Source of the DNA: Candidatus Levyibacteriota bacterium
GTDB lineage: Bacteria; Patescibacteriota; Microgenomatia; Levybacterales; UBA12049
NCBI GenBank assembly: GCA_009695045.1
Contig: SIBS01000002.1
Location: forward strand, 26,774 to 90,773
Reading direction: 5' to 3'
Length of the DNA: 64,000 nt
Below, piece after piece: positions 1 through 60,669 of the stretch. The first letter of the stretch is position 1; each line of letters starts with the position of its first letter. A model generated the notes under the pieces. The model was given only the letters and a program-made list of their open reading frames with translations, was not told the origin of the DNA and did no database searches. Both the position numbers and the translations under genes were made by a program.

Positions 1-789
1 CTAGATTATCATAAAAATTGGGATAATTATTTTATTACAAAAGCAAAACTTATTAAAAATGTAAAAATAGCAATATTAAATCGTGATGAGTTATATTTTG
101 ATAGATTGACTGAGCAAGCAAAAGGTAAAATTATTAGTTTTGGATTTTCATCAAAAGCTGAATATAATCAAAAAAAATTCCCATTAAATTTAAAAATTTT
201 AGGTGATTTTAATTTATTAAATGGTTGGGCAGCAGCAGCAGCGTGTAGTGAGGTCGGAATATCTTCAACTATAATTAAATCTGCTTTAAATAAATTTTCT
301 AGATTAAAAGGGAGAATGGAAGAAATTAAAAATAATAAAGGTCTTATGATTGTGGTAGATTTTGCTGCTACCCCTAATGGCTTAGAGCAGTCATTAAAAA
401 CTTTACGAAAAAAGACAAAGGGGAGACTTATTTCAGTTTTTGGATCAGCTGGGCAAAGAGATATTTCAAAAAGATTTTTAATGGGAAAAATTTCTGCTAA
501 ATTTGCCGATATAACGATAATAACAGCAGAAGATCCACGCGGAGAATTAAATAAGATTAATGAGCAAATTGCTAATGGCGCAAAAGAAGCAGGTGCAGAA
601 ATAAATAAAAACCTTTTTATTATTAATCGTCGTGAAAAAGCAGTAGCTTTTGCGATAAATAATATTTCGAAAATAGGAGATACAATTGGATTCTTTGGTA
701 AAGGTCATGAAGAATCAATGAATTATGATGGTAAAAAAGAAGAACTATATAGCGAATTTAATCAAATTAAAAAATCATTAAAAAAATAA
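1..789 (+). CDS. murE: UDP-N-acetylmuramoyl-L-alanyl-D-glutamate--diamino acid ligase MurE, C-terminal part (5' end lies outside the window)
   Basis: Frame 1 is open from nucleotide 1 with no upstream stop. The Mur-ligase C-terminal domain (VVDFAATPNGLEQSL...GRLISVFGSAGQRDISKRFLMGKISAKFADITIITAEDPRGE) aligns with the MurE pattern (VVDYAHTPDALEKAL...FGCGGDRDKGKR...TDDNPRTE). Confidence 0.7.
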   Translation, partial: LDYHKNWDNYFITKAKLIKNVKIAILNRDELYFDRLTEQAKGKIISFGFSSKAEYNQKKFPLNLKILGDFNLLNGWAAAAACSEVGISSTIIKSALNKFSRLKGRMEEIKNNKGLMIVVDFAATPNGLEQSLKTLRKKTKGRLISVFGSAGQRDISKRFLMGKISAKFADITIITAEDPRGELNKINEQIANGAKEAGAEINKNLFIINRREKAVAFAINNISKIGDTIGFFGKGHEESMNYDGKKEELYSEFNQIKKSLKK

Positions 790-6434: not shown

Positions 6435-8198
6435 ATGTGTGGAATATTTGGATATATTGGTAATCAAAATAATGCAGCTGAATCCACATTGGAGGGGTTG
6501 AAATTATTAGAATATAGAGGATATGATTCTTGGGGTATTGCCGTAAAGGATGGTAAAAATATTATCGTGGAGAAACATGTGGGTAAAATTGGTCAAGCAA
6601 AAACATCTCTGCCCAAAAGCTCACTCGGAATTGGTCATACTAGATGGGCAACTCATGGTGGAGTAACTGTGGAAAATTCGCATCCACATCTAGATTGTAG
6701 GAAAGAAATTGCAGTTATTCATAATGGTATTATAGAAAATTTCAAAGATTTAAAAAATGAATTACTGGCAAAAAATCATATATTTCTGTCTGAAACAGAT
6801 ACAGAAATTTTGCCACATCTTATTGAAGAATATCTAAAGACAGAAGAATTTTCATCCGCAGTTAGGGATGCATTTAATAGATTAAAGGGTTTAAATGCTG
6901 TTGTTGTTGCATATTCGCCCTCAGAAGAGATAATTGCTGCTAAAACAGGATCACCATTAGTAGTGGGATTAGGCGTAAATGAATTTTATGTCGCATCAGA
7001 TGTTTCTGGAATAATAAATCATACTCGTAGAATATTATTTGTAGAAGATAATCAAATGGTTATTTTAGGTAAAAAATTAAAATTAATTAGTTTATCAAGC
7101 GGTGATGAGATTCAGCCAGTATTTAATGATATTGACTGGAAATTTGAGCAATCAGATAAAGGCGATTTCAAGCATTTTTTTATGAAAGAAGTAAGTGAGC
7201 AGCCAAAAGTAGTAAAAAATATAGCATTAAATTACAAAGCTGAATCGGAAAAATTGGCAGATCTTATTGATAAGGCATTTGGGACTTTTATGCTGGGATG
7301 TGGAACAGCATCTTACGCGGCATTGGCAGGGACATACCTTTTTTCTAGAATTGCAAAAAAACATATTAATTTTTCAATTGGATCTGAATTTATGTATCTT
7401 GAGGATTATTTAACGCAAAAAAGTCTTATTATTCCAATTTCTCAAAGCGGTGAAACAATTGACGTAGTTGAGCCTGTTGCAAAAGCACTGAAAAAAGGAG
7501 CTAAAATTGCAGCAATAATAAATGTATTGGGCTCTACTCTTTATAGGCAAGCAGATTATAAATTCCTACTCGGAGCAGGTCCAGAGAAAGCAGTTGTAGG
7601 AACAAAAAGTTTTATTGCAATGATTGCAATGCTAATTTTAACCGCTTATACCCTAGCTAAGAAGCAATCAAAAGGTAAAGATCTTCTTATTAAGAGTGCG
7701 GAAAATATTGAAAATATTTTAAAAGTTGATTTTATTGAAAAGATAAAAATTATTGCTGATGATTTGAAAAATAAAGAACACATTTATATTATTGGGAGAG
7801 GATTATCATATGCTACAGCAGTTGAAGCAACATTAAAAATTAAAGAAACAAGCTGTATACATGCAGAAGGTTTTGCTGGGGGAGAATTAAAGCATGGCGT
7901 AATTGCGCTTATTGAAAAAGGTACACCATGCATTGTGTTTGCTCCAAATGATGAGACCTATGATGATATTATTTCCAATGCTGAAGAAATAAATGCTCGC
8001 GGAGGATTTATTATAGGAATTGGTCCTAAAAATAATGATGTATTTGATAGATTTTTACAAACTGATGATATCGGTGAGGCCACAATGATTCCTCAAGTGG
8101 TAATCTCTCAAATTTTAGCATATCAGCTTGCTCTCAAGCGAGGCATAGAAGATCCAGATAAGCCAAGAAATCTTGCTAAAAGTGTTACAGTTAAATGA
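6435..8198 (+). CDS. glmS: Glutamine--fructose-6-phosphate aminotransferase (isomerizing)
   Basis: N-terminal nucleophile MCGIFGY (Cys2), a glutaminase domain, then two SIS domains. 587 aa; C-terminus ends with the typical ...TVK. Confidence 0.92.
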   Translation: MCGIFGYIGNQNNAAESTLEGLKLLEYRGYDSWGIAVKDGKNIIVEKHVGKIGQAKTSLPKSSLGIGHTRWATHGGVTVENSHPHLDCRKEIAVIHNGIIENFKDLKNELLAKNHIFLSETDTEILPHLIEEYLKTEEFSSAVRDAFNRLKGLNAVVVAYSPSEEIIAAKTGSPLVVGLGVNEFYVASDVSGIINHTRRILFVEDNQMVILGKKLKLISLSSGDEIQPVFNDIDWKFEQSDKGDFKHFFMKEVSEQPKVVKNIALNYKAESEKLADLIDKAFGTFMLGCGTASYAALAGTYLFSRIAKKHINFSIGSEFMYLEDYLTQKSLIIPISQSGETIDVVEPVAKALKKGAKIAAIINVLGSTLYRQADYKFLLGAGPEKAVVGTKSFIAMIAMLILTAYTLAKKQSKGKDLLIKSAENIENILKVDFIEKIKIIADDLKNKEHIYIIGRGLSYATAVEATLKIKETSCIHAEGFAGGELKHGVIALIEKGTPCIVFAPNDETYDDIISNAEEINARGGFIIGIGPKNNDVFDRFLQTDDIGEATMIPQVVISQILAYQLALKRGIEDPDKPRNLAKSVTVK

Positions 8199-8920
8199 AT
8201 AAAAATTCTTTAAATAAAAAAATTCTGCCTATTATTATTTTGCACGGATGGGGATTAAGCACTCTGGTTTATAAAAATATTGTAAAAATTCTGAAGAAGA
8301 GAAATCACAGAGTTTATGTATTTGATTTTCCAGGATTTGGAGAAGAACCATTAGGAAATAATAGAGTTCTAAGTGATTATGTCATTTTTTTAAAAAATTA
8401 TTTAGAAAAAAGAAAAATTAAGAAATGTATATTAATAGGTCATTCTTTTGGTGGAAGGATTGCATTAAAATTTTCAATTAAATATCCTATTAATGTTGAT
8501 AAAATTATTCTTACTGGTGTTCCGGTGATTCGTCATAATGGAATGAAGCAAATTATAGCAGGTATCATAGCTTTTTTTGGAAAAAAAATAATATGTATTT
8601 TTCCTAAGTTTTTAGAAATTTTATTTAGGAAATTACTTTATCGTTTGATTGGGGAATCGGATTATATTAGGGCAGGAAAACTTAAAGATTTGTTTACTAA
8701 TATAATTACAGAAGATATATCGGGTTATTTTCGTGATTCTATTGTTCCAATATATTTAATTTGGGGAGAGAGTGACTCAATCACACCAGTATCAGATATA
8801 TCTATTATGAAAAAAATAAGACCAAATATAAAATATATTATTATTCCCAATACTGGACATCGATTACCATATGAAAATTCATTTATTTTTGCAAATGAAT
8901 TAGAGAACTATATTCTATGA
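8195..8920 (+). CDS. Alpha/beta-fold hydrolase (esterase/lipase-like)
   Basis: ILHGWG oxyanion region and nucleophile elbow GHSFGG; a C-terminal GHRLP segment is consistent with the catalytic His. Confidence 0.6.
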   Translation: MNKNSLNKKILPIIILHGWGLSTLVYKNIVKILKKRNHRVYVFDFPGFGEEPLGNNRVLSDYVIFLKNYLEKRKIKKCILIGHSFGGRIALKFSIKYPINVDKIILTGVPVIRHNGMKQIIAGIIAFFGKKIICIFPKFLEILFRKLLYRLIGESDYIRAGKLKDLFTNIITEDISGYFRDSIVPIYLIWGESDSITPVSDISIMKKIRPNIKYIIIPNTGHRLPYENSFIFANELENYIL

Positions 8921-10518
8921 ATAACATAATTTTTATTTTTACGTCTTTATCTTTTTTTATATGGGTAATAAGAAATACATTTTATTGGGTATATCTCTGG
9001 CAATTAAAAGAATATCGTCTAGATAGAGTTCTTATTCATTTTAAGGAAACTTATCAAGGAAAAAGAATTTTACTATCTCCATTTTTATGGATAAAGATCC
9101 TTCTTATTATAGGGTATGGATATATCGTTTTTAATAATGAATATTTATTATTTTATCAAATATTTATTTCATTAATTTTTTATTATGAGGCTTTTTCTGT
9201 TCTGCAAGAAATAATTTTTCATAGATTACGTCGTCCATCGTCAACTATTAAAGGGGTAATCATGTGTAGCTTAACAATATTTTTTATTTCAATTTTATTT
9301 ACTATTCCTTTTGTTGATAAATATTTATGGCTATTATTACTTGAGTGTTTAATACCATTTATTATTTATATTATTGTTTTTGCTTTTTCTTTCCCAACGG
9401 AAATATATCATGATTATAAAATTGAAAAAGCAAGAAAAAAATTAGCTGATCATAAAAAAATACTTGTTATTGCAATAACTGGAAGCTATGGAAAGAGTTC
9501 CACAAAAGAATTTGTATCACAAATTTTAGAAAAAAAATTTCGATTATTAAAAACTCAAGGTAGTAATAATACTCCAATTGGTATTGCTAATACTATTCTT
9601 GATGGGCTTAAAAATAATACAGAAATACTTGTTACAGAAATGGGTGCATATAAAAAGGGTGAAATATTAGAACTTTGTGAAATTGTTAATCCAGAGATTG
9701 GAATTATTACAGGTATTAACGATCAGCATCTTTCTCTTTTTGGTAGCTTGAGCAATACAATGCAAGCAAAATATGAACTTATAGATTCATTGCCAAAAAA
9801 TGGTCTTGCATTGTTTAATGGTAATAATAATAATGCAAAAAAATTATATGAAAAAACAAAAATAAATAAAGTTCTTTATGAGGTTAAATTTTCAGTAAAT
9901 GATGTTAAGAGGAATATCTTCGCTGAGAATATAGTTACTAAAAAAAATTCTGTTTCTTTTGATGTTATTTTAAAAAGAAAAAAAATTCATTTTGAAGCAC
10001 CAGTTATTGGTGCACATAACATAGAAAACATTCTTCCAGGCATCTTTATCGGAAACAGGCTTGGTATTTCAGATTTTGATTTGGTAAAATCTGTTTCATC
10101 TTTACAATCACTTCCTAAAACAATGACTAAGCAAGAATTGGAAAATGGAACTATAGTTATTGATGATACATTTAATACTAGTCAACAAGCTGTAAGAGCT
10201 GCTTTGTCCTATCTTAAGGTGTTTAAGCAGAAAAGAATTCTTGTATTTCAACCCATGATAGAGCTTGGGGTAAGTGCAGGAGATGAGCACTATAGGGTTG
10301 CTGGTGATATGGTTAAAATATGTGATTATATTTTTGTTACAAATGAAAATTTTTTAAATCAAATGAGAAAAGGTGCTTCTTTAATAAATTCTAAATGTGA
10401 AATAAGAAAAGCTTCTATCGTAGAGATAGCGAAATTTATCCAGAATAAGGTTCATAAAGGAGACGTTGTATTATTTGAAGGAAAAGAAGCGGGAATGGTT
10501 TTGAATAAAATTTTATAA
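8917..10518 (+). CDS. murF: UDP-N-acetylmuramoyl-tripeptide--D-alanyl-D-alanine ligase with an N-terminal ~170-aa polytopic membrane extension
   Basis: Mur-ligase P-loop ITGSYGKSSTKE and the MurF-type motif ITGINDQHLSLFGSL (compare ITNIGxAHLExFGS). About five hydrophobic helices precede the catalytic domains (IIFIFTSLSFFIWVI, ILLIIGYGYIVF, LLFYQIFISLIFYY, VIMCSLTIFFISILFTIPFV, LWLLLLECLIPFIIYIIVFAF). Confidence 0.8.
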   Translation: MNNIIFIFTSLSFFIWVIRNTFYWVYLWQLKEYRLDRVLIHFKETYQGKRILLSPFLWIKILLIIGYGYIVFNNEYLLFYQIFISLIFYYEAFSVLQEIIFHRLRRPSSTIKGVIMCSLTIFFISILFTIPFVDKYLWLLLLECLIPFIIYIIVFAFSFPTEIYHDYKIEKARKKLADHKKILVIAITGSYGKSSTKEFVSQILEKKFRLLKTQGSNNTPIGIANTILDGLKNNTEILVTEMGAYKKGEILELCEIVNPEIGIITGINDQHLSLFGSLSNTMQAKYELIDSLPKNGLALFNGNNNNAKKLYEKTKINKVLYEVKFSVNDVKRNIFAENIVTKKNSVSFDVILKRKKIHFEAPVIGAHNIENILPGIFIGNRLGISDFDLVKSVSSLQSLPKTMTKQELENGTIVIDDTFNTSQQAVRAALSYLKVFKQKRILVFQPMIELGVSAGDEHYRVAGDMVKICDYIFVTNENFLNQMRKGASLINSKCEIRKASIVEIAKFIQNKVHKGDVVLFEGKEAGMVLNKIL

Positions 10519-11777
10519 TGAATTTATATATTAAGCGTCCAATTGCAATTGAAATTTCTCCTAATACAGCTTTTGATGATGTTAGGATTGCTTGGGGAAT
10601 ATTTTTCACCCCATGGCGTTATATTAATGGTAATAGCGTAATGCTTCTTGAACAATGGTTTCGTCAATATTTTTCTGTTTCAAGTGCTATATCTTTCGTA
10701 AGTGGTAGAGGTGCATTATTTATTATCTTACAAGCGCTTGGAGTTAATAAGGATGATGAAGTCATTATTCAATCATTTACATGTGCCGTAGTTCCAAATG
10801 CAATTATTGCTCGAGGAGCAAAGCCAATTTATGTTGATATTAATTTATCTCTTACAATGGATCCAGATAAGTTAGAAAAGGAGATTACAAAAAAAACTAA
10901 AGCTATTATTGTGCAGCATACATTTGGAATCCCATCAGATATTGAAAAAATTGTCTCAATTGCAAATAAATATGAAATTCCCATAATTGAAGACTCTGCT
11001 CATGTAATTGGTGGAATATGGAAAAATAAAAAATTAGGATCAATTGGAAAAGTTGGATTTTTTAGCTTTGGAAGAGATAAGGCTTTTTCATCTGTTTTTG
11101 GCGGAATGGTTATAACTAATGATATTATGTTTGGTAAAAAAATAAGATCTCTACATCGTGTACAAAAAAATCCTTCATTTTTATGGATTCTACAGCAATT
11201 ATTTCACCCAATTGCATTTTATATTATTCTTCCACTTTATGATACTCTTTATATTGGAAAAGTAATTTTAATTATTTTACAAAAATTACATTTTCTTTCT
11301 TTTTCTGTAACAAATAAAGAGAAGGATGGTGGTTTCGAAAAAATACTTTTGTCAAAATTACCAAATGCATTAGCAATACTTGCGCTTCATCAGGTAAGAA
11401 AAATAAAAGAATATAATGCAAAACGAAATAGTATTACGGAATTATATATTAAAGAGCTTTCAGACCCAATGTTTTCTTTTCCATGGAGAGTAAGTAGTTC
11501 ACTTCTTAGATTTCCTGTTTTAATAAATGGCAATAGAGATGATCTTATGTTATTTATGAAAAAACATAATATTTATTTAGGAAATTGGTATACTGAATGT
11601 ATAGGTCCATCGGGGACAGATTTCGAAAAAATATATTATCAAAGAAGTAATTTTCCTATATCTTTAATGATATCTCAAAAGATTATTAATTTGCCAACTT
11701 ACCCAACGATGAAAATTGCTGATGCTAAGCGAATAATTCAAGTATTACAAATATATGCTAGAAATAAAAGAAGTTAA
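10518..11777 (+). CDS. DegT/DnrJ/EryC1/StrS-family PLP-dependent aminotransferase
   Basis: Fold-type I sugar-aminotransferase pattern: DEVIIQSFTCAVVPNAI...GAKPIYVDIN...AIIVQHTFGIP...IIEDSAHVIGG...GKVGFFSFGRDKAFSS (PLP-Lys in FSFxxxK). Confidence 0.7.
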   Translation: MNLYIKRPIAIEISPNTAFDDVRIAWGIFFTPWRYINGNSVMLLEQWFRQYFSVSSAISFVSGRGALFIILQALGVNKDDEVIIQSFTCAVVPNAIIARGAKPIYVDINLSLTMDPDKLEKEITKKTKAIIVQHTFGIPSDIEKIVSIANKYEIPIIEDSAHVIGGIWKNKKLGSIGKVGFFSFGRDKAFSSVFGGMVITNDIMFGKKIRSLHRVQKNPSFLWILQQLFHPIAFYIILPLYDTLYIGKVILIILQKLHFLSFSVTNKEKDGGFEKILLSKLPNALAILALHQVRKIKEYNAKRNSITELYIKELSDPMFSFPWRVSSSLLRFPVLINGNRDDLMLFMKKHNIYLGNWYTECIGPSGTDFEKIYYQRSNFPISLMISQKIINLPTYPTMKIADAKRIIQVLQIYARNKRS

Positions 11778-12774
11778 CGATAAAAAACAATGGACTAATT
11801 TTCTTTCAAAAAAAGAAATTATATACTATCCACTTTTTCAATCATGGAATTGGGGCGAGGTTCAAAAAGCACTAGGATTCTCTATAATTAGAATTGGTTT
11901 ATTTGATAATGATAAATTAGTAGCTGTTTGTTTAATCATAGATATCATCGCAAAGCGTGGGCATTATCTACATCTTCGTCATGGGCCAGTTATCTTAGAT
12001 AAAAATATCGTTTATATTAATGCAATAGTTAATTATGTAAAGAAAATTGCTAAGGAAAAGAAAGCAAAATTTATTAGAATGAGTCCATTATGGGAAAAAA
12101 AGATTGTTGATATAAAATATCTAAAAAATAATGGATGCATTGATGCTCCAATTTATAATATGGATGCTGAATATTGTTGGGTACTAGATATATCAAAATC
12201 TGAAAAAGAACTTCTTTCGGACATGCGTAAGTCTCATCGTTATCTTATACGTAAATCACTTAAAATGCATATTGAGATATCAAAAACAAATGATGTTAAA
12301 GCAGTAGATGATTTCCTTTTATTATATAAAGATCTCTCTGATCGAAAACATTTTGTTCCACATAGAGGAATTAGAGAGGAAGTGATGTTTTTTGGACAAG
12401 ATAATGAAGCACTTCTTTTATTAGCTAGCTGGAATAATGAAATAGCAGGTGGAGCTGTTATTGATTTTGTTGGAAAAATGGCAATATATCATCATGGAGC
12501 AACTCTCTCAAGGTATCGAGATATTCCCCTTTCCTATATTATTCAGTGGCAGGCTATTTTGGAAGCAAAAAAGCGAGGTATGAAAATATATAATTTTTGG
12601 GGAATTGCACCGCTAAATCAGCCTAATCATCCATGGCAAGGTCACACACTTTTTAAAATGGGATTTGGTGGAGAAGTTTGTGAATTTGTACATGCCCAAG
12701 ACATACCGTTATCACTTGATTATTGGCGAAGTTGGATTATTGAAAAAATAACAAAGAAGCTGAAGGGATATTAA
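11755..12774 (+). CDS. FemABX-family peptidoglycan peptidyltransferase (aminoacyl-tRNA-dependent)
   Basis: Conserved Fem-family C-terminal motif YIIQWQAILEAKKRGMKIYNFWGI (compare YLLQWEAIKYAKEKGYKxYDFGGI). About 340 aa with two GNAT-like halves. Confidence 0.7.
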   Translation: MLEIKEVNDKKQWTNFLSKKEIIYYPLFQSWNWGEVQKALGFSIIRIGLFDNDKLVAVCLIIDIIAKRGHYLHLRHGPVILDKNIVYINAIVNYVKKIAKEKKAKFIRMSPLWEKKIVDIKYLKNNGCIDAPIYNMDAEYCWVLDISKSEKELLSDMRKSHRYLIRKSLKMHIEISKTNDVKAVDDFLLLYKDLSDRKHFVPHRGIREEVMFFGQDNEALLLLASWNNEIAGGAVIDFVGKMAIYHHGATLSRYRDIPLSYIIQWQAILEAKKRGMKIYNFWGIAPLNQPNHPWQGHTLFKMGFGGEVCEFVHAQDIPLSLDYWRSWIIEKITKKLKGY

Positions 12775-12854: not shown

Positions 12855-13862
12855 ATGGGACAACTTTTAGGACTTCTTATTATGTCTTTTTTTATATCTG
12901 GAATTCTGTTCATTCCTTTTATAGATTTTCTCTATAAAATAAAACTTCAGAGACAAAAACAAATCACAAAAGACATGTTTAATAAGCATACGCCAATTTT
13001 TGATAAATTTAATTCTTGGAAAGTTGGCACACCGTTTGGAGGAGGTATTCTTATAATAATTGTAGTTACATTGCTTACATTTTGGTCATATGGAGTCTTT
13101 GGTGTAAAGGTAAAGCCATGGGAATTATTTGTATTATTATTTTCATTTATAGGATTTGGATTATTAGGATTATATGATGATATTAAAAAATTATTCCCTG
13201 ACAATAAAGCATTTTTTGGTCTTTCTTTTACTGTAAAATTTCTTATTCAATGGATAATTGCTTTTATTTTAGCTTCTGTATTATATATTAATCTTGGCTA
13301 TTCATTTATTTTTATTCATGGATTTGGATTGGCAAATATTGGATTTTTATATATTCCTATTGCTGCATTTATTATTGTATCTTTTGCTAATGCATTCAAT
13401 ATTGCTGATGGTTTAGATGGACTTGCTTCTGGGCTTCTTTTAATTTGTTTAGGATCTTTTTTAGCAATTTCTTCAACAGCATTAGATCAGGGATTGGGCA
13501 TGTTTATATCTATTCTTATGGGAAGCGTTGGTGCTTTTTTATATTTTAATATTTATAAAGCTCGAATATGGCTTGGAGACGTTGGCTCAATGGCGCTTGG
13601 TGCATCACTTGGAATAATAGGTCTTCTAACAGGAAAAATTATCGCTGTTGCATTTATTGGTGGCGTTTTTGTATTAGAGGCAGGTTCATCACTTTTACAA
13701 ATTTTGAGTAAAAAATTCTTCGGAAAAAAAGTATTTCCTGTATCTCCGCTTCATCTTTATTTACAACGACATGGATGGGAGGAGCCAAAAATTGTCATGC
13801 GTGCTTGGTTACTTGGATTTCTCTTTGCTATTATTGGTCTATACTTCGCTTTCATCGGTTAA
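12855..13862 (+). CDS. mraY: Phospho-N-acetylmuramoyl-pentapeptide transferase
   Basis: Polytopic membrane protein with the NAFNIADGLDGLASG motif and GDVGSMALG. Confidence 0.92.
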   Translation: MGQLLGLLIMSFFISGILFIPFIDFLYKIKLQRQKQITKDMFNKHTPIFDKFNSWKVGTPFGGGILIIIVVTLLTFWSYGVFGVKVKPWELFVLLFSFIGFGLLGLYDDIKKLFPDNKAFFGLSFTVKFLIQWIIAFILASVLYINLGYSFIFIHGFGLANIGFLYIPIAAFIIVSFANAFNIADGLDGLASGLLLICLGSFLAISSTALDQGLGMFISILMGSVGAFLYFNIYKARIWLGDVGSMALGASLGIIGLLTGKIIAVAFIGGVFVLEAGSSLLQILSKKFFGKKVFPVSPLHLYLQRHGWEEPKIVMRAWLLGFLFAIIGLYFAFIG

Positions 13863-20074: not shown

Positions 20075-20665
20075 ATGAGTAAATATGTAAAATGGTTTAT
20101 AATAATATTAATTTTTATTTATTTTTTTATATTTTTTGATAAAAATATTTTTCAAAATAATACTGTTATTAGTAGGCCAATAACTGCATCAATTATTCCT
20201 CAATCAAATGATGTTCATTCCCCTGACGGTTCATTTAGCATTGTAATGCAATCAAAGGAAAGCAATAGTGGTTTTTTTACCTACGAATTTTTTATTGAAA
20301 ATATATCTGGAGGTAAAAAAAAATTACTTTTTGCAACCAGTGGAGAGGGTGGAGAATTTTGGATTACTCCAAATGCATGGTCACCAGACAATAATTATAT
20401 ATATATATTGGAAAGAAAAAATAATAAATTAAATGCAATGATTTTTAAATCATCAGGTGAAAGTTTTGCAAATGGTGATGTTTATATTGATACATCGCCA
20501 ATTTTTATTAGTCGTAGAACGGGATATGAAATAGTTGATATAACTGGTTGGGATTCTCCTACGTTATTGCATGTAGTAACAAAAAATCATCAAGATATTG
20601 GTCCTTCTTTTTGGTTTGATGTTCCAAGTAAAACTTTTATGCAATTATATAATCGTTCCCTATAG
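20075..20665 (+). CDS. Hypothetical signal-anchored/exported protein
   Basis: N-terminal hydrophobic anchor (WFIIILIFIYFFIFF), then a beta-rich region with a TolB-like WSPDNNYIY motif. No confident family assignment. Confidence 0.45.
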   Translation: MSKYVKWFIIILIFIYFFIFFDKNIFQNNTVISRPITASIIPQSNDVHSPDGSFSIVMQSKESNSGFFTYEFFIENISGGKKKLLFATSGEGGEFWITPNAWSPDNNYIYILERKNNKLNAMIFKSSGESFANGDVYIDTSPIFISRRTGYEIVDITGWDSPTLLHVVTKNHQDIGPSFWFDVPSKTFMQLYNRSL

Positions 20666-21337
20666 TGTCTTTAGCATTTTTTCAGTAGCTTTTATACTTA
20701 AATCTTCGCCATTATAAATAAATTCAAATATTATTTCATTATTTTTATTATTTTTTATGTAAAGATTTTGTAATTGATTTACCGAACCCTTATCATAGGG
20801 ATTACTATAAATAGATACACTGAATTCGCTTGGAATCTCGGGTATCTTCATAAAATCATGGCGTGTTGGAGCAGTTGCTTCAAGATTAGCATCTTTAGCA
20901 ACCCAATACAGTAGAGATGCTAGATGACAAACTCCATCTCCAGCCAAGTATCCATCAGATTTAAATCCTTCTGATAAATTAAAATGTGAATTGGTCGTTT
21001 TATCTATTTTATTTTGATATTCTGGTAGAACATCATCGTGAAATGCAAAAATTTCATCAGGTTTCAATACCATGCTATACTTAAATGGTTTATTAATTTT
21101 ATCCCAATCAATATTATTTGAATCTATTTTTTTATCAGAAGTATATTTAATTGTAAGGAGAATATTTTCTTTAAAAACATTATTTACAAAAGAATTACCA
21201 TATCTATTATTTAATGAAAAAGTATGAGACGAGATCTCCTTTACTACAAATTGTTTTGGAATAATTTGTTTTACTGGTGATTCAGTAAAAAATGGAATAA
21301 ATAAAAGTGATGCAAATGTCATAATCTTTATAGACAT
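20660..21337 (-). CDS. VanW-like domain exported protein
   Basis: Signal peptide (MSIKIMTFASLLFIPFF); VanW-type motif GYLAGDGVCHLASLLYWVAKDANLE (compare GGGVCQVSTTLYNA). Confidence 0.6.
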   Translation of the reverse strand: MSIKIMTFASLLFIPFFTESPVKQIIPKQFVVKEISSHTFSLNNRYGNSFVNNVFKENILLTIKYTSDKKIDSNNIDWDKINKPFKYSMVLKPDEIFAFHDDVLPEYQNKIDKTTNSHFNLSEGFKSDGYLAGDGVCHLASLLYWVAKDANLEATAPTRHDFMKIPEIPSEFSVSIYSNPYDKGSVNQLQNLYIKNNKNNEIIFEFIYNGEDLSIKATEKMLKTL

Positions 21338-21466: not shown

Positions 21467-22174
21467 ATGCTAAGCATTGGATTAAAATCTGTATCATGGA
21501 CTCGTTCTAGTGTTATTTTATTTTTATTTATAATAGCCTTGATATGGAGAATATTTGTATATGGATTTGATTTTAAAAATAAGTGTGCTAATTCAATCAG
21601 TTGTATAAAAGATATTTCTGGAATATTTCAGATAGGGAAAAAAAATATATTTTTGTCTCGATCTATTACTTCTCTGCCATATGTATCTAATAAAAATAAT
21701 ATACATACTGTGCTTGGCAATACTACTTCAATTGGAGAAAAGCATATATTCATTGATTTAGATACGCAGCAACTTTATGCATATGAGGATAAAATACAGG
21801 TCTATGCTTTTCCTGTATCAACAGGTAAATGGGGCAAGACTCCAACTGGAACTTTTAGGATATGGATTAAAATAAGAAATGCTCATATGGAAGGAGGTTC
21901 TGGGGATGATTATTATAATCTTTATAACGTACCCTATACAATGTTTTTTTCAAATGAAAATGTTGATGCTAGTCTAGGTTTTAGCATTCATGGTGCCTAT
22001 TGGCACAATAATTTTGGTTATCCGATGAGTCATGGATGCATAAATTTACGTCCTGAAGATGCTGAGAAAATTTATGGCTGGGCTGATCCTCCAACACGGG
22101 GAATTTCTACTCATTCAACAACTAAAAATAAAGGAACATTAATTACTATTTATGGTGAGCCTCATATGAATTAA
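21467..22174 (+). CDS. L,D-transpeptidase (YkuD domain), membrane-anchored
   Basis: N-terminal TM; catalytic region HGAYWHNNFGYPMSHGCINL carries the YkuD H...SHGC(I/V)(R/N)L motif. Confidence 0.8.
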   Translation: MLSIGLKSVSWTRSSVILFLFIIALIWRIFVYGFDFKNKCANSISCIKDISGIFQIGKKNIFLSRSITSLPYVSNKNNIHTVLGNTTSIGEKHIFIDLDTQQLYAYEDKIQVYAFPVSTGKWGKTPTGTFRIWIKIRNAHMEGGSGDDYYNLYNVPYTMFFSNENVDASLGFSIHGAYWHNNFGYPMSHGCINLRPEDAEKIYGWADPPTRGISTHSTTKNKGTLITIYGEPHMN

Positions 22175-23730: not shown

Positions 23731-24735
23731 ATGAATAATAATCGTTTTAATAATATAGATTTTATTCGAGCAATTGCAATTATCTGTGTTATCGCTACCC
23801 ATGTATATTCTCGTCATTTATTTGGTGAATTTAATATCTTAATTTGGAATTATTTACATTTTACTATTTTTATGTTTATTTTTTGTTCTGGCTACGTATT
23901 ATCATTGCGATATGAATTTGAATTTAATTCATGGAAACAAATACTCTCTTGGTATTTTAAAAGATCTCAAAGATTAATTATTCCATTTTATTGTTACCTT
24001 TTTGTACATTATTTATTATGGTATTTATTTCCACAATTTTTTGATGGCTTAGAATTAAATAATTCATTTAATTTTATAGTTCAATCAATTTTTCTAACAG
24101 GAGGAGTAAATGCTAATTGGTTGGTTCTGCTTTTTATACAGCTTACAGTCTTATTACCTTTACTTACAAAAATATATATTAAAAAAATTATAATAATATT
24201 TTATATTTTATTTTCTACATTTTTTACAATATATATTACTTTTATTCCATTTTCATATAATTTATCTCGTTATGTAATGTGGATACCGTGGTCATTAGCA
24301 TTATTGTTTTCCATTTACGCATCTAGGAATAAGATAAGTAATAAGAAATACATATCTCTGGCGATATTGTCAGGCATATTATTTTATTTATTTAATTTTT
24401 TACATCCATTTAATAAGTCTCTTTCTCTTTATGACCATAAATATCCATCAGATTTATATTATTTATCATATGAATTTTTTATTACATTTATTTTATTATC
24501 AATTAGCCAATCTTCATATTTGAAAAATTCATTTTTACAAAAATCATATGAATATATCAGTCATAAATCTTATTCTTTATATTTTATTCATTATATTGTT
24601 TTAGATTTTATATTTAAAGTAACAAATAATTATTATTTATTTTCAAATATTTTTATCCAATTTTTATTAATTTTATCTATAAGTCTTTTTACATGTTGGT
24701 TATTAGATAAATTATCTCGAATATTATTAATTTAA
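23731..24735 (+). CDS. Acyltransferase family 3 (OafA/OatA-like) integral membrane O-acyltransferase
   Basis: N-terminus FIRAIAIICVIATHV is the acyltransferase-3 signature with catalytic His; about 10 TM helices; extremely AT-rich. Confidence 0.7.
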   Translation: MNNNRFNNIDFIRAIAIICVIATHVYSRHLFGEFNILIWNYLHFTIFMFIFCSGYVLSLRYEFEFNSWKQILSWYFKRSQRLIIPFYCYLFVHYLLWYLFPQFFDGLELNNSFNFIVQSIFLTGGVNANWLVLLFIQLTVLLPLLTKIYIKKIIIIFYILFSTFFTIYITFIPFSYNLSRYVMWIPWSLALLFSIYASRNKISNKKYISLAILSGILFYLFNFLHPFNKSLSLYDHKYPSDLYYLSYEFFITFILLSISQSSYLKNSFLQKSYEYISHKSYSLYFIHYIVLDFIFKVTNNYYLFSNIFIQFLLILSISLFTCWLLDKLSRILLI

Positions 24736-24789
24736 TTATAATAATATTATCTAATATATTTTTATTTTTTTTTATATTATAATAGTCTA

Positions 24790-25683
24790 ATGAATAAAAA
24801 AGCAAAATTAAAAAAAAATAAAAATAATTATCTTCGTAATTTAAATTATAATCAAGCAATATTTTTTATATTATTTTTAATTATTATTTATATCTTTAAT
24901 ATAGTTAAAAGTAATATTAATTATTTTAAATCAAAAATTAAGCCTCATATTGCTAAGGGAACAATTGCCTCAGTTAATCAACCCTTATCTAGTATTAGAT
25001 TACCAATTTTTTTATATCATTATGTTGAGTATGTAGCTGATCAAAACGATACTATTCGTAAATCACTTAATATTCAACCATGGGTATTGGAAAAGCAAAT
25101 ACAGACACTTAAAGATGCTGGATATAATTTTATTACTCCTTCTGAGGCAATACAAATGCTTAATGGAAATATCCCACTCGTTATTAAACCAATTATTCTC
25201 TCATTTGATGATGGATATAGGGATTTTTATACTGATGTTTTCCCAATTATTAAAAAAGAAAAAGTAAGAGCAATTGTATACATTGTGCCTGGATTTATCG
25301 ATAAAATAAATTTTATGTTCAGGAATCAGTTAGAGGAAGTTGCTGATAGTTCATTAATAGAAATCGGCGCACATACAGTAAATCATGTTTGGCTTAAGGG
25401 GCTTGAGGCACATCATATTAAGAAAGAGATTGTAGAAAGTAAATTATTGCTAGAGGACTCTATTCATAGAAAAGTTGTATCATTTGCATATCCATATGGG
25501 GCTTTTGATGATCAAATATCAAAAATAGTAAAAGAAGCTGGTTTTACATCTTCAGTATCAACCATCTCTGGAATTGAAGCTACTCACTTAAATAAATTTT
25601 ATCTTTTTAGATTGCGACCCGGTAATCGTATTGGAAAGTCATTAATTGATTGGTTAGATCAATCTGTATTTTATTCATGGTAA
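24790..25683 (+). CDS. Polysaccharide deacetylase (NodB homology / CE4), membrane-anchored
   Basis: N-terminal TM; NodB motifs LSFDDGYRDFYTDVFP (TFDDG-like) and GAHTVNHVWL (H-x-x-x-H). Confidence 0.75.
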   Translation: MNKKAKLKKNKNNYLRNLNYNQAIFFILFLIIIYIFNIVKSNINYFKSKIKPHIAKGTIASVNQPLSSIRLPIFLYHYVEYVADQNDTIRKSLNIQPWVLEKQIQTLKDAGYNFITPSEAIQMLNGNIPLVIKPIILSFDDGYRDFYTDVFPIIKKEKVRAIVYIVPGFIDKINFMFRNQLEEVADSSLIEIGAHTVNHVWLKGLEAHHIKKEIVESKLLLEDSIHRKVVSFAYPYGAFDDQISKIVKEAGFTSSVSTISGIEATHLNKFYLFRLRPGNRIGKSLIDWLDQSVFYSW

Positions 25684-26750: not shown

Positions 26751-29555
26751 ATGTTTAAGTCTGTAAATCCGCAAGTAGATTTTCCAAAACAAGAAGAAGA
26801 AATACTTGAATTTTGGAAAAAAAATAAAATATTTGAAAAATCATTAGATAAAGATGCGCCGAATGGAAAATGGACATTTCTTGATGGCCCACCTTTTATT
26901 ACAGGTCTTCCGCATTATGGAACATTACTTGTAAGTATTCCTAAAGATGTTTTTCCTCGATTTTGGACAATGCGTGGATATATGGTAAGACGTGTTTGGG
27001 GATGGGATGTTCACGGATTGCCTGCTGAAAATAAAGTAGAAGTTAAGCTGGGCATTGAACGCAAAAAAGATATAGAAGAAAAGATTGGAATTAAGCAATT
27101 TATAGATGAATGTCGTAATTACGTAAGTGAATCTTCAAGGGAATGGGAATGGTATATTGATCATATCGCAAGATGGGTTGATTTTAAAAATGCTTATAAA
27201 ACAATGGATATTTCCTATATGGAATCTGTGATGTGGGTTTTTAAGCAAATGTATGAAAAAGGATATATATATAAGGGACTTCGTGTCTCTCTATATTGTC
27301 CACATTGCTCAACTCCAATCTCTAATTTTGAAGTTGCAATGGATCCTGACAATTATAAAGAGATTACAGAGGCATCAAATACTTATAAATATCAACTTGT
27401 TGAGAGTAGTGATACCTATTTACTTGCATGGTCAACTACGCCGTGGAATAAATTAGTTACATCAGCTCTTGCTGTAAATTCAAAGTTGGATTATGTTAAG
27501 GTCGAACAAGGTAAAGAAAAATATATCTTGGCAAAATCAAAAATAAAAATTTTAGTAGGTGAATATAAAATTATTCAAGAAATAAGTGGTATTGATCTTA
27601 TTGGTCTCTCCTTTGTGCCACATTATGATTTTTATACCATTGATAGTGATAAAAAAGCATTTATAATTGTTGATGGTGATTTCGTTACTGCGGAAGAAGG
27701 AACTGGAATAGTCACTATAGCGGCTTATGGTGAAGAAGATTTAGTTGTTATGCAAAAAGAAAATATTCAAATAATGCTACATGTTGATGATGAAGGAATG
27801 ATTAAAAAAGAAATTCCAAAATGGAACGGAATGTATTACCTAAAGGTAAATAAATTAGTAAATGAAGATTTAGTAAATAGAGGACTAATGTATAAGGAAG
27901 AAGACTATATTCATAAAATTCCTACGTGCTGGCGATGCCATACTAGGCTTATATACGCTCCTCAAAATGCTTGGTATGTTAATGTTCAAATTCTTAAGGA
28001 TAGGATGAGAAAAAATAACGAAGAAGTAAATTGGTTTCCTAAGCACTTTAAAATGGGTCGTTATTTAAAAAGTTTGGAGTCAGCACCAGATTGGTGTATT
28101 TCAAGAAGTAGGTATTGGGGTTCCCCTGTTCCAGTATGGGAGTGTGAATGCGGAGAGCGAATTGTTCCTGGATCAATTGCTGAGCTAGAAGAATTTTCTG
28201 GTAAAAAAATTACTGATTTACATAAGCCTGAAATTGATCAGATAACAATACTTTGTAATAAATGCAAATCTATTACAAAGAGAGTTCCTGAAGTTTTGGA
28301 TAGTTGGATAGAGGCTGGTTCAGCGTCGTTTGCAGAACGTCATTATCCATTTAATGAAAAGGTTAAATTTGCTGATTTCTTCCCTCCAGATTTTATCACT
28401 GAGTATACGGGACAAATTAGAGCTTGGTTTTATGTTTTACATGTTATATCAACTGCCCTATATGATTCAATGGCATTTAAGAACGTTGTTGTAACTGGTG
28501 TAATACTGGGTACCGATGGTAGAAAGATGAGTAAAAATCTAGGAAATTATCCTGATCCAAAAGAGTTATTACAAAAATATGGTGGCGATGCATTACGCCT
28601 TTACCTTATGGGGAGTCCAGTAATGCATGGGGAAGACATGGTTATTTCTGAAGATCAGTATCGAAATCAGATAAAGAATTTTTTATTAGTTTTATGGAAT
28701 ATATATAATTTTTTTGTTTCATATGCATTAATTGATAAGTGGGAGCCAAGTAATTTTAGCAAAGATAATTTAAATATATTGGATAAATGGATATTATCAA
28801 AGCAACAGGATCTTATTATGGAATTAACAGCTTCCTTAGAGGAATATGATACAATGACGGCAATTAATAAAGCTAAGTTATTTATTGATGATTTTTCAAT
28901 GTGGTATATTCGACGAAGTAGAGAGCGAATAGGTCCAAGTGCAAAATTTATATTAGAAAAAAAATCTTTTTATAATACTTGCTACAAAGTATTAACCACA
29001 TTATGTAAACTATTGGCTCCAATCGCTCCTTTTGTTACTGAGGCGATGTATAAAAATCTTACAAATGAGGAATCCGTGCACTTATCTAATTGGCCTCAGT
29101 ACGAATCTTTATTAAGAGATAAGGGGTTAGAGGAGGAAATGGAACGAGCTCGTAAAATAGTAGAAAGAGCGCATGCTCTTCGTAAAGAGCACTCTATAAA
29201 AGTAAGAATTCCATTAAGGAATCTTAATTATTCTGGTCCATTTAAATTAAGTGAAGAAATTAAATTAATAGTGCTTGATGAAATAAATGTTCTAATTCTA
29301 AATTATTTAGGCAAGACAAATGATTATATTGTATCCGGTGAAATGAATGAAGAAAATCAAGATATTATTGCAGGAAAAGCTAGGGATATTATTCGAAGCA
29401 TTCAAGAGGAGAGAAAAAAATTAGGAACTAGAATTGATGAGGAAGTTGATGTTGTTTTACCAAATTGGCCAATTGAATTAGAAAGTGAGATAAAAAGAAA
29501 AGCATTAATTAAATCACTTTCTAAGGGTGATACACTGACTGTAATTAGATTATGA
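26751..29555 (+). CDS. ileS: Isoleucine--tRNA ligase
   Basis: Class I aaRS; HYGTLL (HIGH-like), KMSKN(LG) KMSKS motif, CP1 editing-domain size, and the WCISRSRYWGSPVP motif typical of IleRS. 934 aa. Confidence 0.9.
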   Translation: MFKSVNPQVDFPKQEEEILEFWKKNKIFEKSLDKDAPNGKWTFLDGPPFITGLPHYGTLLVSIPKDVFPRFWTMRGYMVRRVWGWDVHGLPAENKVEVKLGIERKKDIEEKIGIKQFIDECRNYVSESSREWEWYIDHIARWVDFKNAYKTMDISYMESVMWVFKQMYEKGYIYKGLRVSLYCPHCSTPISNFEVAMDPDNYKEITEASNTYKYQLVESSDTYLLAWSTTPWNKLVTSALAVNSKLDYVKVEQGKEKYILAKSKIKILVGEYKIIQEISGIDLIGLSFVPHYDFYTIDSDKKAFIIVDGDFVTAEEGTGIVTIAAYGEEDLVVMQKENIQIMLHVDDEGMIKKEIPKWNGMYYLKVNKLVNEDLVNRGLMYKEEDYIHKIPTCWRCHTRLIYAPQNAWYVNVQILKDRMRKNNEEVNWFPKHFKMGRYLKSLESAPDWCISRSRYWGSPVPVWECECGERIVPGSIAELEEFSGKKITDLHKPEIDQITILCNKCKSITKRVPEVLDSWIEAGSASFAERHYPFNEKVKFADFFPPDFITEYTGQIRAWFYVLHVISTALYDSMAFKNVVVTGVILGTDGRKMSKNLGNYPDPKELLQKYGGDALRLYLMGSPVMHGEDMVISEDQYRNQIKNFLLVLWNIYNFFVSYALIDKWEPSNFSKDNLNILDKWILSKQQDLIMELTASLEEYDTMTAINKAKLFIDDFSMWYIRRSRERIGPSAKFILEKKSFYNTCYKVLTTLCKLLAPIAPFVTEAMYKNLTNEESVHLSNWPQYESLLRDKGLEEEMERARKIVERAHALRKEHSIKVRIPLRNLNYSGPFKLSEEIKLIVLDEINVLILNYLGKTNDYIVSGEMNEENQDIIAGKARDIIRSIQEERKKLGTRIDEEVDVVLPNWPIELESEIKRKALIKSLSKGDTLTVIRL

Positions 29556-60655: not shown

Positions 60656-60669
60656 AAATTTTATATTAA

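What the first reader, a model, noticed from the sequence alone, without database searches (positions are those of the whole stretch)
8917..10518. MurF carrying an N-terminal five-helix membrane domain
- MurF is normally a soluble cytoplasmic ligase whose ~80-aa N-terminal domain binds the UDP-MurNAc-tripeptide.
- Here the catalytic P-loop sits at residue ~190, preceded by ~170 residues made almost entirely of hydrophobic helices.
- This would tether the last cytoplasmic step of precursor synthesis to the membrane, next to MraY, which is encoded two genes downstream.
- A membrane-anchored MurF is not part of the textbook pathway.
Basis: seen in the sequence. Interest (0 to 1): 0.6.

Follow-up and report, generated by a model that had tools for sequence, protein, structure and literature searches.

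The report
Membrane-embedded MurF cell-wall ligase
This gene encodes the enzyme that completes the cell-wall precursor peptide (MurF), but its usual soluble substrate-holding head is replaced by a conserved five-helix membrane domain, a design shared by hundreds of lineages of ultra-small Patescibacteria (CPR) and not found described in the literature searched here.

Summary
ORF 8917-10518 (+) is one uninterrupted 533-aa gene. It has five N-terminal transmembrane helices (predicted N-out/C-in), then a MurF-type central domain (P-loop G189-K193-S194) and C-terminal domain. The canonical N-terminal domain is replaced, not supplemented: HMM and PDB alignments start at MurF position ~68.

It is neither an artefact nor a one-off:
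- More than 120 protein clusters share 97-100% coverage.
- 668 representatives at 50% identity carry the membrane domain, always at the N-terminus.
- 164 GTDB species genomes carry it, across Patescibacteria and a few high-GC Anaerolineae MAGs.

It is the only MurF-type gene in this genome's mraZ-to-ftsZ cluster. It usually sits in a conserved block: alpha/beta-hydrolase, TM-MurF, DegT-like aminotransferase, FemAB.

The membrane domain has no Pfam family and no solved structural relative. It appears to be more than an anchor. A cytoplasmic-loop motif (WQxKEYRxDR...H) is near-invariant wherever the catalytic residues are intact. The motif decays in catalytically dead relatives, which still sit beside mraY.

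Best reading: a membrane-integrated MurF whose loops help hold the substrate next to MraY. Action on a lipid-linked substrate is not excluded. Verdict: new variant of a known kind; interest 0.6.

The parts
8917..10518 (+). TM-MurF: one 533-aa ORF, membrane domain plus MurF central and C-terminal domains
   Evidence: ORF list and translation. No in-frame stops. 100% identical to a protein named MurF in a Candidatus Levybacteria MAG.
8923..8997 (+). TM helix 1 (residues 3-27)
   Evidence: Hydropathy; AF2 helix 2-30.
8998..9060 (+). Cytoplasmic loop-1 motif W28-Q-x-K31-E-Y-R34-x-D36-R37...H41..E-T-x-Q-G48
   Evidence: Invariant in 26 homologues. 94-100% conserved in catalytically intact family members and degenerate in dead ones. 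Loop is K/R-rich, so cytoplasmic.
9079..9132 (+). TM helix 2 (residues 55-72)
9139..9207 (+). TM helix 3 (residues 75-97)
   Evidence: AF2 helix 74-100. Hydropathy is moderate.
9223..9252 (+). Cytoplasmic loop 3 (R103-L-R-R-P107-S-S-T110-I-K112; family consensus KRPxFTxK)
   Evidence: P107 invariant; T110 and K112 at least 90% conserved. Mean K+R 2.81.
9247..9303 (+). TM helix 4 (residues 111-129)
9322..9390 (+). TM helix 5 (residues 136-158)
   Evidence: Strongest hydropathy peak, 2.74. Part of AF2 helix 135-177.
9391..9447 (+). Juxtamembrane connector helix (residues 159-177), with conserved P160-T-E...D166; continuous with TM5 and leads into the ligase
   Evidence: AF2 helix 135-177 followed by strand 183-188. 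P160 and D166 invariant in close homologues.
9475..10044 (+). Mur ligase central (ATP-binding) domain, residues 187-376; P-loop G189-S-Y-G-K193-S194 at 9481-9498
   Evidence: Pfam PF08245, E 1.1e-38. Catalytic residues G192, K193, E241, H271, K285 and E287 conserved.
10141..10485 (+). Mur ligase C-terminal domain, residues 409-523 (includes D416-D-T-F-N420)
   Evidence: Pfam PF02875, E 3e-10. Top ten structural matches are all MurF.
8195..8920 (+). Alpha/beta-hydrolase, conserved upstream partner (4-nt overlap with TM-MurF)
   Evidence: Pfam. Found upstream of TM-MurF in most of the 80 related loci. Fused to TM-MurF in P0004.
10518..11777 (+). DegT/DnrJ/EryC1-type PLP aminotransferase with a hydrophobic insertion (about residues 225-265), conserved downstream partner
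   Evidence: Pfam. Synteny. Hydrophobic insertion present in 40 of 58 homologues. Fused to TM-MurF in L050.
11755..12774 (+). FemAB-family peptidyltransferase, conserved downstream partner
   Evidence: Pfam PF02388. Synteny. Nearest solved relatives are S. aureus FemA and FemX.
12855..13862 (+). MraY (phospho-MurNAc-pentapeptide translocase), the next enzyme in the pathway
   Evidence: Pfam PF00953. TIGR00445, E 7.6e-50.

Best explanation
This is the organism's MurF, the ATP-dependent ligase that adds D-Ala-D-Ala to the MurNAc-tripeptide precursor. It occurs here in a lineage-wide variant (Patescibacteria/CPR plus some Anaerolineae).

In this variant the ~70-80-aa N-terminal substrate-binding 'cap' domain is replaced by a ~160-aa integral membrane domain. 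The domain has five helices in an N-out/C-in topology. The fifth helix continues as a rigid connector into the ATP-binding domain, so the catalytic domains sit on the cytoplasmic face of the membrane.

The cytoplasmic loops of the membrane domain lie at the membrane surface. The main one is the basic/aromatic motif W-Q-x-K-E-Y-R-x-D-R...H after helix 1; K-R-P-x-x-T-x-K after helix 3 is a second. They probably take over domain 1's job of holding the nucleotide-diphosphate end of the substrate. The pentapeptide product would then be made where MraY uses it.

Shown here: the architecture, topology, conservation and distribution; positional equivalence to murF; and the coupling between the motif and catalytic integrity. 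Inferred: D-Ala-D-Ala ligase activity, the substrate-binding role of the loops, and hand-over to MraY.
For: Identity as MurF:
- TIGR01143 murF scores 229.8 bits, against 85 or less for murD, murC and murE.
- The best PDB sequence hits are all MurF.
- The ten best fold matches of the AF2 model are all MurF (4qf5 E 1.2e-24, TMt 0.68).
- Catalytic residues are intact.

Only MurF-type gene in the cluster:
- The window plus 10 kb upstream reads mraZ-mraW-ftsI-murE-murC-murB-murA-...-glmS-ABhyd-THIS-DegT-FemAB-mraY-ftsW-murG-ftsA-ftsZ.
- A family HMM finds no other MurF-like ORF in the window.
- In 11 related loci the gene lies directly between glmS (or an NTP-transferase gene) and mraY.

Real and conserved:
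- 120 listed clusters have 97-100% coverage.
- 668 representatives carry the N-domain, always at positions 1 to ~170.
- 164 loci in GTDB species genomes were confirmed.

More than an anchor:
- The N-domain's mean column identity is 58%, against 61% for the whole protein.
- The invariant residues are polar or charged and sit on the cytoplasmic side.
- Among 112 representatives not selected for the motif, the counts are as follows. 51 are catalytically intact with an intact K31/E32/R34/D36/R37 motif. 7 are intact with one conservative change in the motif. None is dead with an intact motif. 54 are dead with a degenerate motif.
- W28, Q29, Y33, P107 and P160 stay conserved in the dead forms.

Precedent for a working MurF without its cap: the B. 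pertussis MurE-MurF chimera (PMC10214165).
Against: - No biochemical data exist, and D-Ala-D-Ala specificity cannot be read from the sequence.
- TIGR01143 scores below its trusted cut-off (229.8 versus 288.6), because the N-domain is missing.
- The same genomes have a MurE with no N-domain and no replacement for it (394 aa). Domain 1 may therefore be dispensable in these organisms, and the loops need not be a substrate site.
- The motif-catalysis association is not corrected for phylogeny. The dead forms may stem from one or a few duplications.
- A second, canonical MurF elsewhere in the ~615-kb contig or genome could not be excluded.
Confidence: 0.6

Rival explanations
1. Lipid-stage MurF. 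The enzyme adds D-Ala-D-Ala to an undecaprenyl-diphosphate-linked MurNAc-tripeptide (lipid I or lipid II tripeptide) rather than to the UDP-linked precursor. The membrane domain would bind the polyprenyl chain. The basic loop at the membrane surface would bind the lipid diphosphate. MraY would then act before MurF.
For: - The UDP-binding domain is gone. It is replaced by a membrane domain with invariant K/R/H and aromatic residues at the cytoplasmic membrane interface.
- The motif is coupled to catalysis.
- Precedent: MurT, a Mur-ligase homologue without an N-domain, acts on lipid II. This window has its own MurT/GatD pair.
- The nearest solved relatives of the conserved FemAB partner are the lipid II enzymes FemA and FemX.
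- MurE in the same genome also lacks the UDP-binding domain.
Against: - There is no direct evidence.
- MraY here is an ordinary MraY by HMM.
- MurE lacks domain 1 without gaining any membrane domain, so loss of domain 1 does not by itself imply a lipid substrate.
- The catalytic domains and C-terminal motifs match UDP-substrate MurFs.
Confidence: 0.15
2. Passive anchor or scaffold. The membrane domain only localises MurF at the membrane, or docks it to MraY and the divisome, and plays no part in substrate binding. The conserved loop would be a protein-protein interface.
For: - Catalytically dead relatives keep the membrane domain.
- In all five contexts examined, the dead relatives sit in the glmS-[x]-mraY-ftsW-murG slot. 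This argues for a role independent of catalysis, beside MraY.
- Fusions of Mur enzymes to membrane proteins are known, for example MurD-FtsW (PMC10214165).
Against: - The K31/E32/R34/D36/R37/H41 motif decays in exactly those dead forms that stay next to mraY. That is unexpected if the motif were the docking surface.
- Conservation of the domain is far above what an anchor needs.
- In many genomes the active gene is not near mraY.
Confidence: 0.15
3. Not the housekeeping MurF. This would be a MurF-derived ligase that works with the co-conserved alpha/beta-hydrolase, DegT-like aminotransferase and FemAB protein to add a different amino acid or peptide to a wall precursor. A canonical MurF would be encoded elsewhere.
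For: - The four-gene block is conserved in about 65 of 80 loci across distant phyla, often away from other dcw genes.
- Rosetta-stone fusions exist: ABhyd+TM-MurF (P0004) and TM-MurF+DegT (L050).
- The score is below the MurF trusted cut-off.
- The last conserved C-terminal motif reads F-E-G-K-E, against F-K-A-S-R at the aligned position of T. maritima MurF.
Against: - It is the only MurF-like gene in a complete mraZ-ftsZ cluster.
- In 11 loci it stands alone between glmS (or an NTP-transferase gene) and mraY, without the partners.
- All best sequence and structure matches are MurF.
Confidence: 0.08
4. Artefact. A small membrane-protein gene is fused to murF by a sequencing or assembly error, or the true start is internal.
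For: None found. The only internal ATG between residues 100 and 195 is M116, which has a G-rich stretch upstream.
Against: - There is no stop or frameshift.
- The same continuous ORF occurs in hundreds of independent assemblies.
- M116 lies inside TM4 and is not conserved.
- AF2 models TM5 and the connector as one helix running into the ligase.
Confidence: 0.01

Closest known systems
Canonical MurF (UDP-MurNAc-tripeptide:D-alanyl-D-alanine ligase; e.g. E. coli 1GG4, T. maritima 3ZL8, A. baumannii 4QF5)
   Same: The central ATP-binding and C-terminal domains match. The P-loop, the Glu/His/Lys catalytic residues and the DD(T/S)(Y/F)N motif are present. These structures give the best HMM, sequence and fold matches. 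The gene occupies the murF position in the dcw cluster.
   Different: The soluble N-terminal domain (about 70-80 aa) is absent. A ~160-aa five-helix membrane domain with its own conserved motif replaces it. The protein is predicted to be an integral membrane enzyme.
Bordetella pertussis MurE-MurF chimera (PMC10214165)
   Same: The MurF moiety lacks the classic N-terminal 'cap', and another polypeptide segment covers that face of the central domain.
   Different: There the replacement is the soluble MurE C-terminal domain, whereas here it is a membrane domain. That survey took only proteins over 600 aa from named species and does not mention transmembrane segments.
MurD-FtsW and MraY-MurG natural chimeras (PMC10214165)
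   Same: A peptidoglycan precursor enzyme is covalently joined to a membrane protein of the same pathway.
   Different: Those join two complete, known enzymes. Here the membrane part is a dedicated domain with no Pfam family and no solved structural relative, and it substitutes for a domain of the ligase itself.
MurT (lipid II isoglutaminyl synthase subunit)
   Same: A Mur-ligase homologue without the N-terminal domain that acts at the membrane stage of the pathway.
   Different: MurT is soluble, carries a MurT_C (DUF1727) domain and works with GatD. This window has its own MurT/GatD pair at 59888-61998. The protein studied here scores only 20.8 bits on the MurT model.

Membership tests
MurF (TIGR01143 / Mur ligase family) | Mur ligase central domain with ATP-binding P-loop and catalytic Glu/His/Lys | tested here: met
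   PF08245 at E 1.1e-38, residues 187-376. G189-S-Y-G-K193-S194, E241, H271, K285 and E287 are conserved in the family.
MurF (TIGR01143 / Mur ligase family) | Mur ligase C-terminal domain | tested here: met
   PF02875 at E 3e-10, residues 409-523.
MurF (TIGR01143 / Mur ligase family) | Closer to MurF than to MurC, MurD, MurE, Mpl, MurT or cyanophycin synthetase | tested here: met
   murF scores 229.8 bits, against murD 85.2, murC 77.5 and murE 63.2. The PDB sequence hits and the top ten Foldseek hits are all MurF.
MurF (TIGR01143 / Mur ligase family) | Full-length match above the curated cut-off, including the N-terminal substrate-binding domain | tested here: not met
   229.8 bits is below the 288.6 cut-off. 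The alignment covers profile positions 68-407 only. 3zl8 aligns from residue 69.
MurF (TIGR01143 / Mur ligase family) | Genomic position in the dcw cluster upstream of mraY, as the only MurF-type gene | tested here: met
   The mraZ...murE-murC...THIS...mraY-ftsW-murG-ftsA-ftsZ order. No other MurF-like ORF in the window. The whole genome was not examined.
MurF (TIGR01143 / Mur ligase family) | ATP-dependent addition of D-Ala-D-Ala to UDP-MurNAc-tripeptide | not testable with these tools
   Needs an enzyme assay.
MurT (lipid II isoglutaminyl synthase) | MurT_C (DUF1727) domain and a GatD partner | tested here: not met
   No MurT_C hit. The MurT model scores 20.8 bits against an 800-bit cut-off. 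A separate MurT/GatD pair lies at 59888-61998.
Lipocone / VanZ membrane domains (lead from PMC12419801) | Recognisable VanZ/Lipocone domain in the membrane part | tested here: not met
   No Pfam hit at E<=5 in any of the 24 N-domains except scattered single matches. The paper does not mention MurF or Mur ligase fusions.
Any solved membrane-protein fold | Significant structural match of the N-domain model | tested here: not met

The most novel reading that the evidence does not exclude
In Patescibacteria, and in part of Chloroflexota, the last peptide-stem ligation may not be a soluble cytoplasmic step. MurF would be an integral membrane enzyme whose membrane domain binds the undecaprenyl-diphosphate-linked MurNAc-tripeptide. 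D-Ala-D-Ala would then be added after MraY, at the lipid stage, which reorders the textbook pathway. Catalytically dead copies of the same protein would persist beside MraY as structural subunits of a membrane precursor-synthesis complex.
Probability: 0.13. Interest if true: 0.9.

Novelty: new variant of a known kind. Interest (0 to 1): 0.6.

Why it matters
Mur ligases are taught, and targeted by drug discovery, as soluble three-domain cytoplasmic enzymes whose N-domain holds the UDP-precursor. A MurF whose substrate-binding domain is swapped for a conserved membrane domain would change that picture across a very large bacterial radiation.

- The cytoplasm-to-membrane hand-over of the wall precursor would be hard-wired in these tiny cells.
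- It would give a natural test case for how a Mur ligase can work without domain 1. MurE in the same genomes also lacks it.
- It raises a testable possibility that the order MurF then MraY is not universal.
- HMM cut-offs based on full-length MurF miss these proteins (229.8 bits against a 288.6 cut-off). This can make CPR genomes look MurF-deficient in pathway surveys.
- The dead derivatives kept next to mraY, and the conserved hydrolase/aminotransferase/FemAB partners, point to a membrane-associated precursor-synthesis module that has not been characterised.

Tried and rejected
- Frameshift, missed stop or internal start: rejected. There are no stops. The only internal start candidate is M116, inside TM4 and not conserved.
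- Second MurF-like or N-domain-bearing ORF in the window: none.
- Pfam and NCBIfam on the N-domain alone: no family.
- Lipocone/VanZ lead from a text search: the paper does not mention Mur ligase fusions, and no VanZ signal was found.
- Literature: seven full-text searches combining MurF, Mur ligase, transmembrane, CPR, Patescibacteria and Saccharibacteria found no description of a membrane-domain MurF. The closest paper is the Mur-chimera survey PMC10214165.
- Word-indexed homologue search with the N-domain profile returned mostly contig-end fragments. The exhaustive HMMER search replaced it.
- I could not test whether genomes with a dead copy in the murF slot also carry an active copy elsewhere.
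- I could not measure motif-to-active-site distances, because model coordinates are not exposed.
Full report
**1. What is in the sequence**

The ORF 8917-10518 (+) is a single 533-aa reading frame with no internal stop. Its ATG overlaps the stop of the upstream alpha/beta-hydrolase gene (ATGA), the usual sign of one operon.

Pfam finds a Mur ligase central domain (residues 187-376, E 1.1e-38) and a Mur ligase C-terminal domain (409-523). It finds nothing in the first 186 residues. The P-loop is G189-S-Y-G-K193-S194.

The first ~160 residues hold five hydrophobic segments. Two AlphaFold models, full length (pLDDT 88.3, pTM 0.76) and N-domain alone (pLDDT 89.7), place helices at 2-30, 55-72, 74-100, 111-129 and 135-177. 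Two short helices (35-44, 46-52) lie in the first loop. The last helix runs without a break from the membrane into the strand that precedes the P-loop.

Across 26 homologues, lysine plus arginine average 5.35, 2.81 and 5.69 in loop 1, loop 3 and the post-TM5 segment. They average 0, 0.12 and 0.54 in the N-terminus, loop 2 and loop 4. The positive-inside rule therefore gives an N-out/C-in topology with the ligase in the cytoplasm.

**2. Replaced, not supplemented**

The MurF model TIGR01143 aligns residues 176-524 to profile positions 68-407 of 418. It scores 229.8 bits, below the 288.6 cut-off because the N-terminal part is missing. T. maritima MurF (3zl8) aligns from its residue 69. So the canonical N-terminal domain is absent. 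According to PMC10214165, that domain binds the UDP-MurNAc-peptide.

**3. Is it MurF?**

All lines of comparison say the catalytic part is MurF-type:
- murF scores 229.8 bits, against 85 or less for murD, murC and murE.
- The seven best PDB sequence hits are MurF.
- The ten best Foldseek hits of the model are MurF (4qf5 E 1.2e-24, TMt 0.68).

The gene context is a complete division/cell-wall cluster. Ten kilobases upstream of the window lie mraZ, mraW, a 94-aa gene, ftsI and a 394-aa murE. Inside the window the order is:
- murE (3' end), murC, murB, murA
- a split glmU-like pair, a HAD-like gene, glmS
- the alpha/beta-hydrolase, this gene, a DegT-like aminotransferase, a FemAB-family gene
- mraY, ftsW, murG, ftsA, ftsZ

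A family HMM finds no other MurF-like ORF in the window; it finds only MurC, MurE and MurT. The whole genome could not be examined.

**4. Not an artefact, not a rarity**

- The identical protein is in a Candidatus Levybacteria MAG, where it is named MurF.
- 120 listed clusters at 47-64% identity cover 97-100% of the query, including the membrane part.
- A profile of the membrane domain alone was scored against 1.84 billion representatives. It finds 668 proteins (286 at E<=1e-10). In every listed case the domain lies at the extreme N-terminus (starting within the first ~40 residues) and is followed by Mur-ligase sequence, or the protein is a contig-end fragment.
- A scan of one genome per GTDB species with the pattern WQxKEYR[LF]D confirmed 164 loci. 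They include Levyibacteriota, Woese-, Gottesman-, Pace-, Dojka- and Spechtbacteria, Parcubacteria, Peregrini- and Peribacteria, and Saccharibacteria.
- Four MAGs labelled Anaerolineae or Anaerolineales also carry it. Their loci have 55-64% G+C, against 27-45% for the rest. This supports a real presence in Chloroflexota rather than mis-binning.
- Many records titled 'uncultured Gammaproteobacteria' carry the low-GC CPR-type cluster. I take these titles to be placeholder labels; this is my inference.

**5. Conserved neighbourhood**

I searched the related loci with the window's own proteins. The block alpha/beta-hydrolase, TM-MurF, DegT-like aminotransferase, FemAB appears in about 65 of 80 loci, including the most distant ones. 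It is often not near any other dcw gene. In 11 loci the gene stands alone between glmS (or an NTP-transferase gene) and mraY.

Two fusions tie the partners together: P0004 (738 aa, hydrolase + TM-MurF) and a 1075-aa ORF in L050 (TM-MurF + DegT).

The DegT-like partner carries a hydrophobic insertion at about residues 225-265, present in 40 of 58 homologues. The closest solved relatives of the FemAB partner are the lipid II enzymes FemA and FemX of S. aureus. What the three partners do is not established.

**6. The membrane domain is more than an anchor**

Its mean column identity is 58%, against 61% for the whole protein. The invariant residues are polar and lie on the cytoplasmic side:
- W28, Q29, K31, E32, Y33, R34, D36, R37, H41, T45, Q47 and G48 in loop 1
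- P107 (consensus KRPxFTxK) in loop 3
- P160 and D166 at the end of TM5

The family also contains many catalytically dead members:
- They have lost the P-loop lysine, E241 and H271.
- About 21 of 112 unique representatives also lack the whole C-terminal domain and are 360-410 aa long.

Counts among those 112 representatives, which were found without using the motif:

| Catalytic residues | K31/E32/R34/D36/R37 motif | Number |
|---|---|---|
| intact | intact | 51 |
| intact | one conservative change | 7 |
| dead | intact | 0 |
| dead | degenerate | 54 |

Fisher's exact test gives 1.3e-24. This is not corrected for relatedness, and the dead forms may descend from few events.

W28, Q29, Y33, P107 and P160 remain largely conserved in the dead forms. 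So once catalysis is lost, selection on the charged motif is relaxed while the fold-related residues persist. That is what one expects if the motif serves the ligase reaction, most simply substrate binding. It is not what one expects if the motif only serves membrane insertion or docking.

**7. The dead forms stay beside mraY**

In all five contexts recovered, the dead protein occupies the slot glmS-[x]-mraY-ftsW-murG, and the hydrolase, DegT and FemAB genes are absent. This suggests a second, non-catalytic role of the membrane domain and ligase scaffold next to MraY. It may also reflect a division of labour between a dead copy in the dcw cluster and an active copy in the four-gene block elsewhere. 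I could not test co-occurrence within genomes.

**8. Mechanism**

The best-supported reading is a membrane-integrated MurF. Its cytoplasmic loops, at the membrane surface, replace domain 1 in holding the diphosphate/nucleotide end of the MurNAc-tripeptide. The product then appears where MraY works.

A working MurF without its cap has a precedent in the B. pertussis MurE-MurF chimera. There the exposed face of the central domain is covered by MurE (PMC10214165).

The main rival is that the substrate is the lipid-linked tripeptide. The interfacial K/R/H/aromatic motif, the loss of the UDP-binding domain and the MurT precedent fit this. Nothing tested here decides between the two.

A caution for both: MurE in these genomes also lacks its N-domain and has nothing in its place. 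It is 394 aa in this genome; a 396-aa homologue matches the murE profile only from position 70. Domain 1 may therefore be dispensable in this lineage.

**9. Comparison with what is known**

Seven full-text searches found no description of a MurF with a membrane domain. The survey of natural Mur chimeras (PMC10214165) lists MurE-MurF, MurG-MurC, MurC-MurB, MurC-Ddl, MurD-FtsW and MraY-MurG. It considered only proteins over 600 aa from named species, which would have excluded these ~530-aa proteins from uncultured bacteria. Absence from the searched library is not proof that it has never been noted elsewhere.

**10. Verdict**

This is the standard MurF of a large bacterial radiation. Its substrate-binding domain has been exchanged for a conserved, apparently functional membrane domain. 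It belongs to a conserved four-gene block and has pseudo-enzyme derivatives. It is a new variant of a known kind, with interest 0.6. The most novel reading still open is lipid-stage D-Ala-D-Ala addition, at about 13% probability.

Noticed in passing
Related loci L083 5567-6745, L085 9235-10407, L087 3114-4721, L089 10001-11581; proteins P0185, P0198, P0177, P0192, P0176: A large set of catalytically dead TM-MurF relatives exists. The P-loop Lys, E241 and H271 are lost, and about 21 of 112 representatives also lack the whole C-terminal domain (360-410 aa). All examined cases sit in the glmS-[x]-mraY-ftsW-murG slot without the hydrolase, DegT and FemAB partners. They look like pseudo-enzymes kept beside MraY.
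   Followed up: partly
window 8195-8920, 10518-11777, 11755-12774, and about 65 of 80 related loci: A conserved four-gene block (alpha/beta-hydrolase, TM-MurF, DegT-like PLP aminotransferase, FemAB-family transferase) occurs across Patescibacteria and in Anaerolineae MAGs. Fusions exist: ABhyd+TM-MurF in P0004, and TM-MurF+DegT in L050 4-3228. The function of the block is unknown.
   Followed up: partly
window 10518-11777 (residues ~225-265 of the DegT-like protein): The DegT-type aminotransferase carries a ~40-aa hydrophobic insertion between its large and small domains. It is present in 40 of 58 homologues in related loci, which suggests membrane association of this partner too.
   Followed up: partly
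window 1-789 (3' end of murE), its full gene upstream of the window, and L085 672-1862: MurE in this genome is only 394 aa, with just the central and C-terminal Pfam domains. A 396-aa homologue matches the murE model only from profile position 70. MurE therefore also lacks the N-terminal UDP-binding domain, and nothing replaces it.
   Followed up: partly
window 59888-60655 (-) and 60670-61998 (-): A GatD-like glutamine amidotransferase and a MurT (Mur_ligase_M + MurT_C) form a lipid II isoglutaminyl synthase pair of the Gram-positive type.
   Followed up: no
window 1-64000 plus 10 kb upstream: No MurD and no D-Ala-D-Ala ligase (Ddl) gene was detected in or next to this otherwise complete mraZ-to-ftsZ cluster. 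The usual murD position between mraY and ftsW is empty.
   Followed up: partly
window 20660-21337 (-), 21467-22174 (+), 29552-30631 (+): A VanW-like protein, a YkuD-type L,D-transpeptidase and a second FtsW/RodA-family gene lie close to the dcw cluster.
   Followed up: no
window 23731-25683 and 33065-43535: An Acyl_transf_3 acyltransferase and a polysaccharide deacetylase lie at 23731-25683. A surface-polysaccharide cluster lies at 33065-43535 (GT4, several GT2, a Wzx-like flippase, a Wzy_C/O-antigen-ligase-like protein). It includes a 528-aa ORF at 40757-42343 with no Pfam match.
   Followed up: no
related loci L027, L030-L032, L035, L036, L040, L042, L043: A subgroup of otherwise intact TM-MurF proteins has the P-loop written G-S-Y-G-K-G-S-T, with Gly instead of Ser/Thr after the Lys. 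All other catalytic residues and the loop motif are conserved.
   Followed up: no
record titles (e.g. L003, L007, L010, L012): Many TPA metagenome bins titled 'uncultured Gammaproteobacteria bacterium' carry the low-GC CPR-type dcw cluster with TM-MurF. One record titled Bathyarchaeia (L044) and one titled Eisenbacteria (L025) do too. These titles look like mislabels or mis-binning.
   Followed up: no
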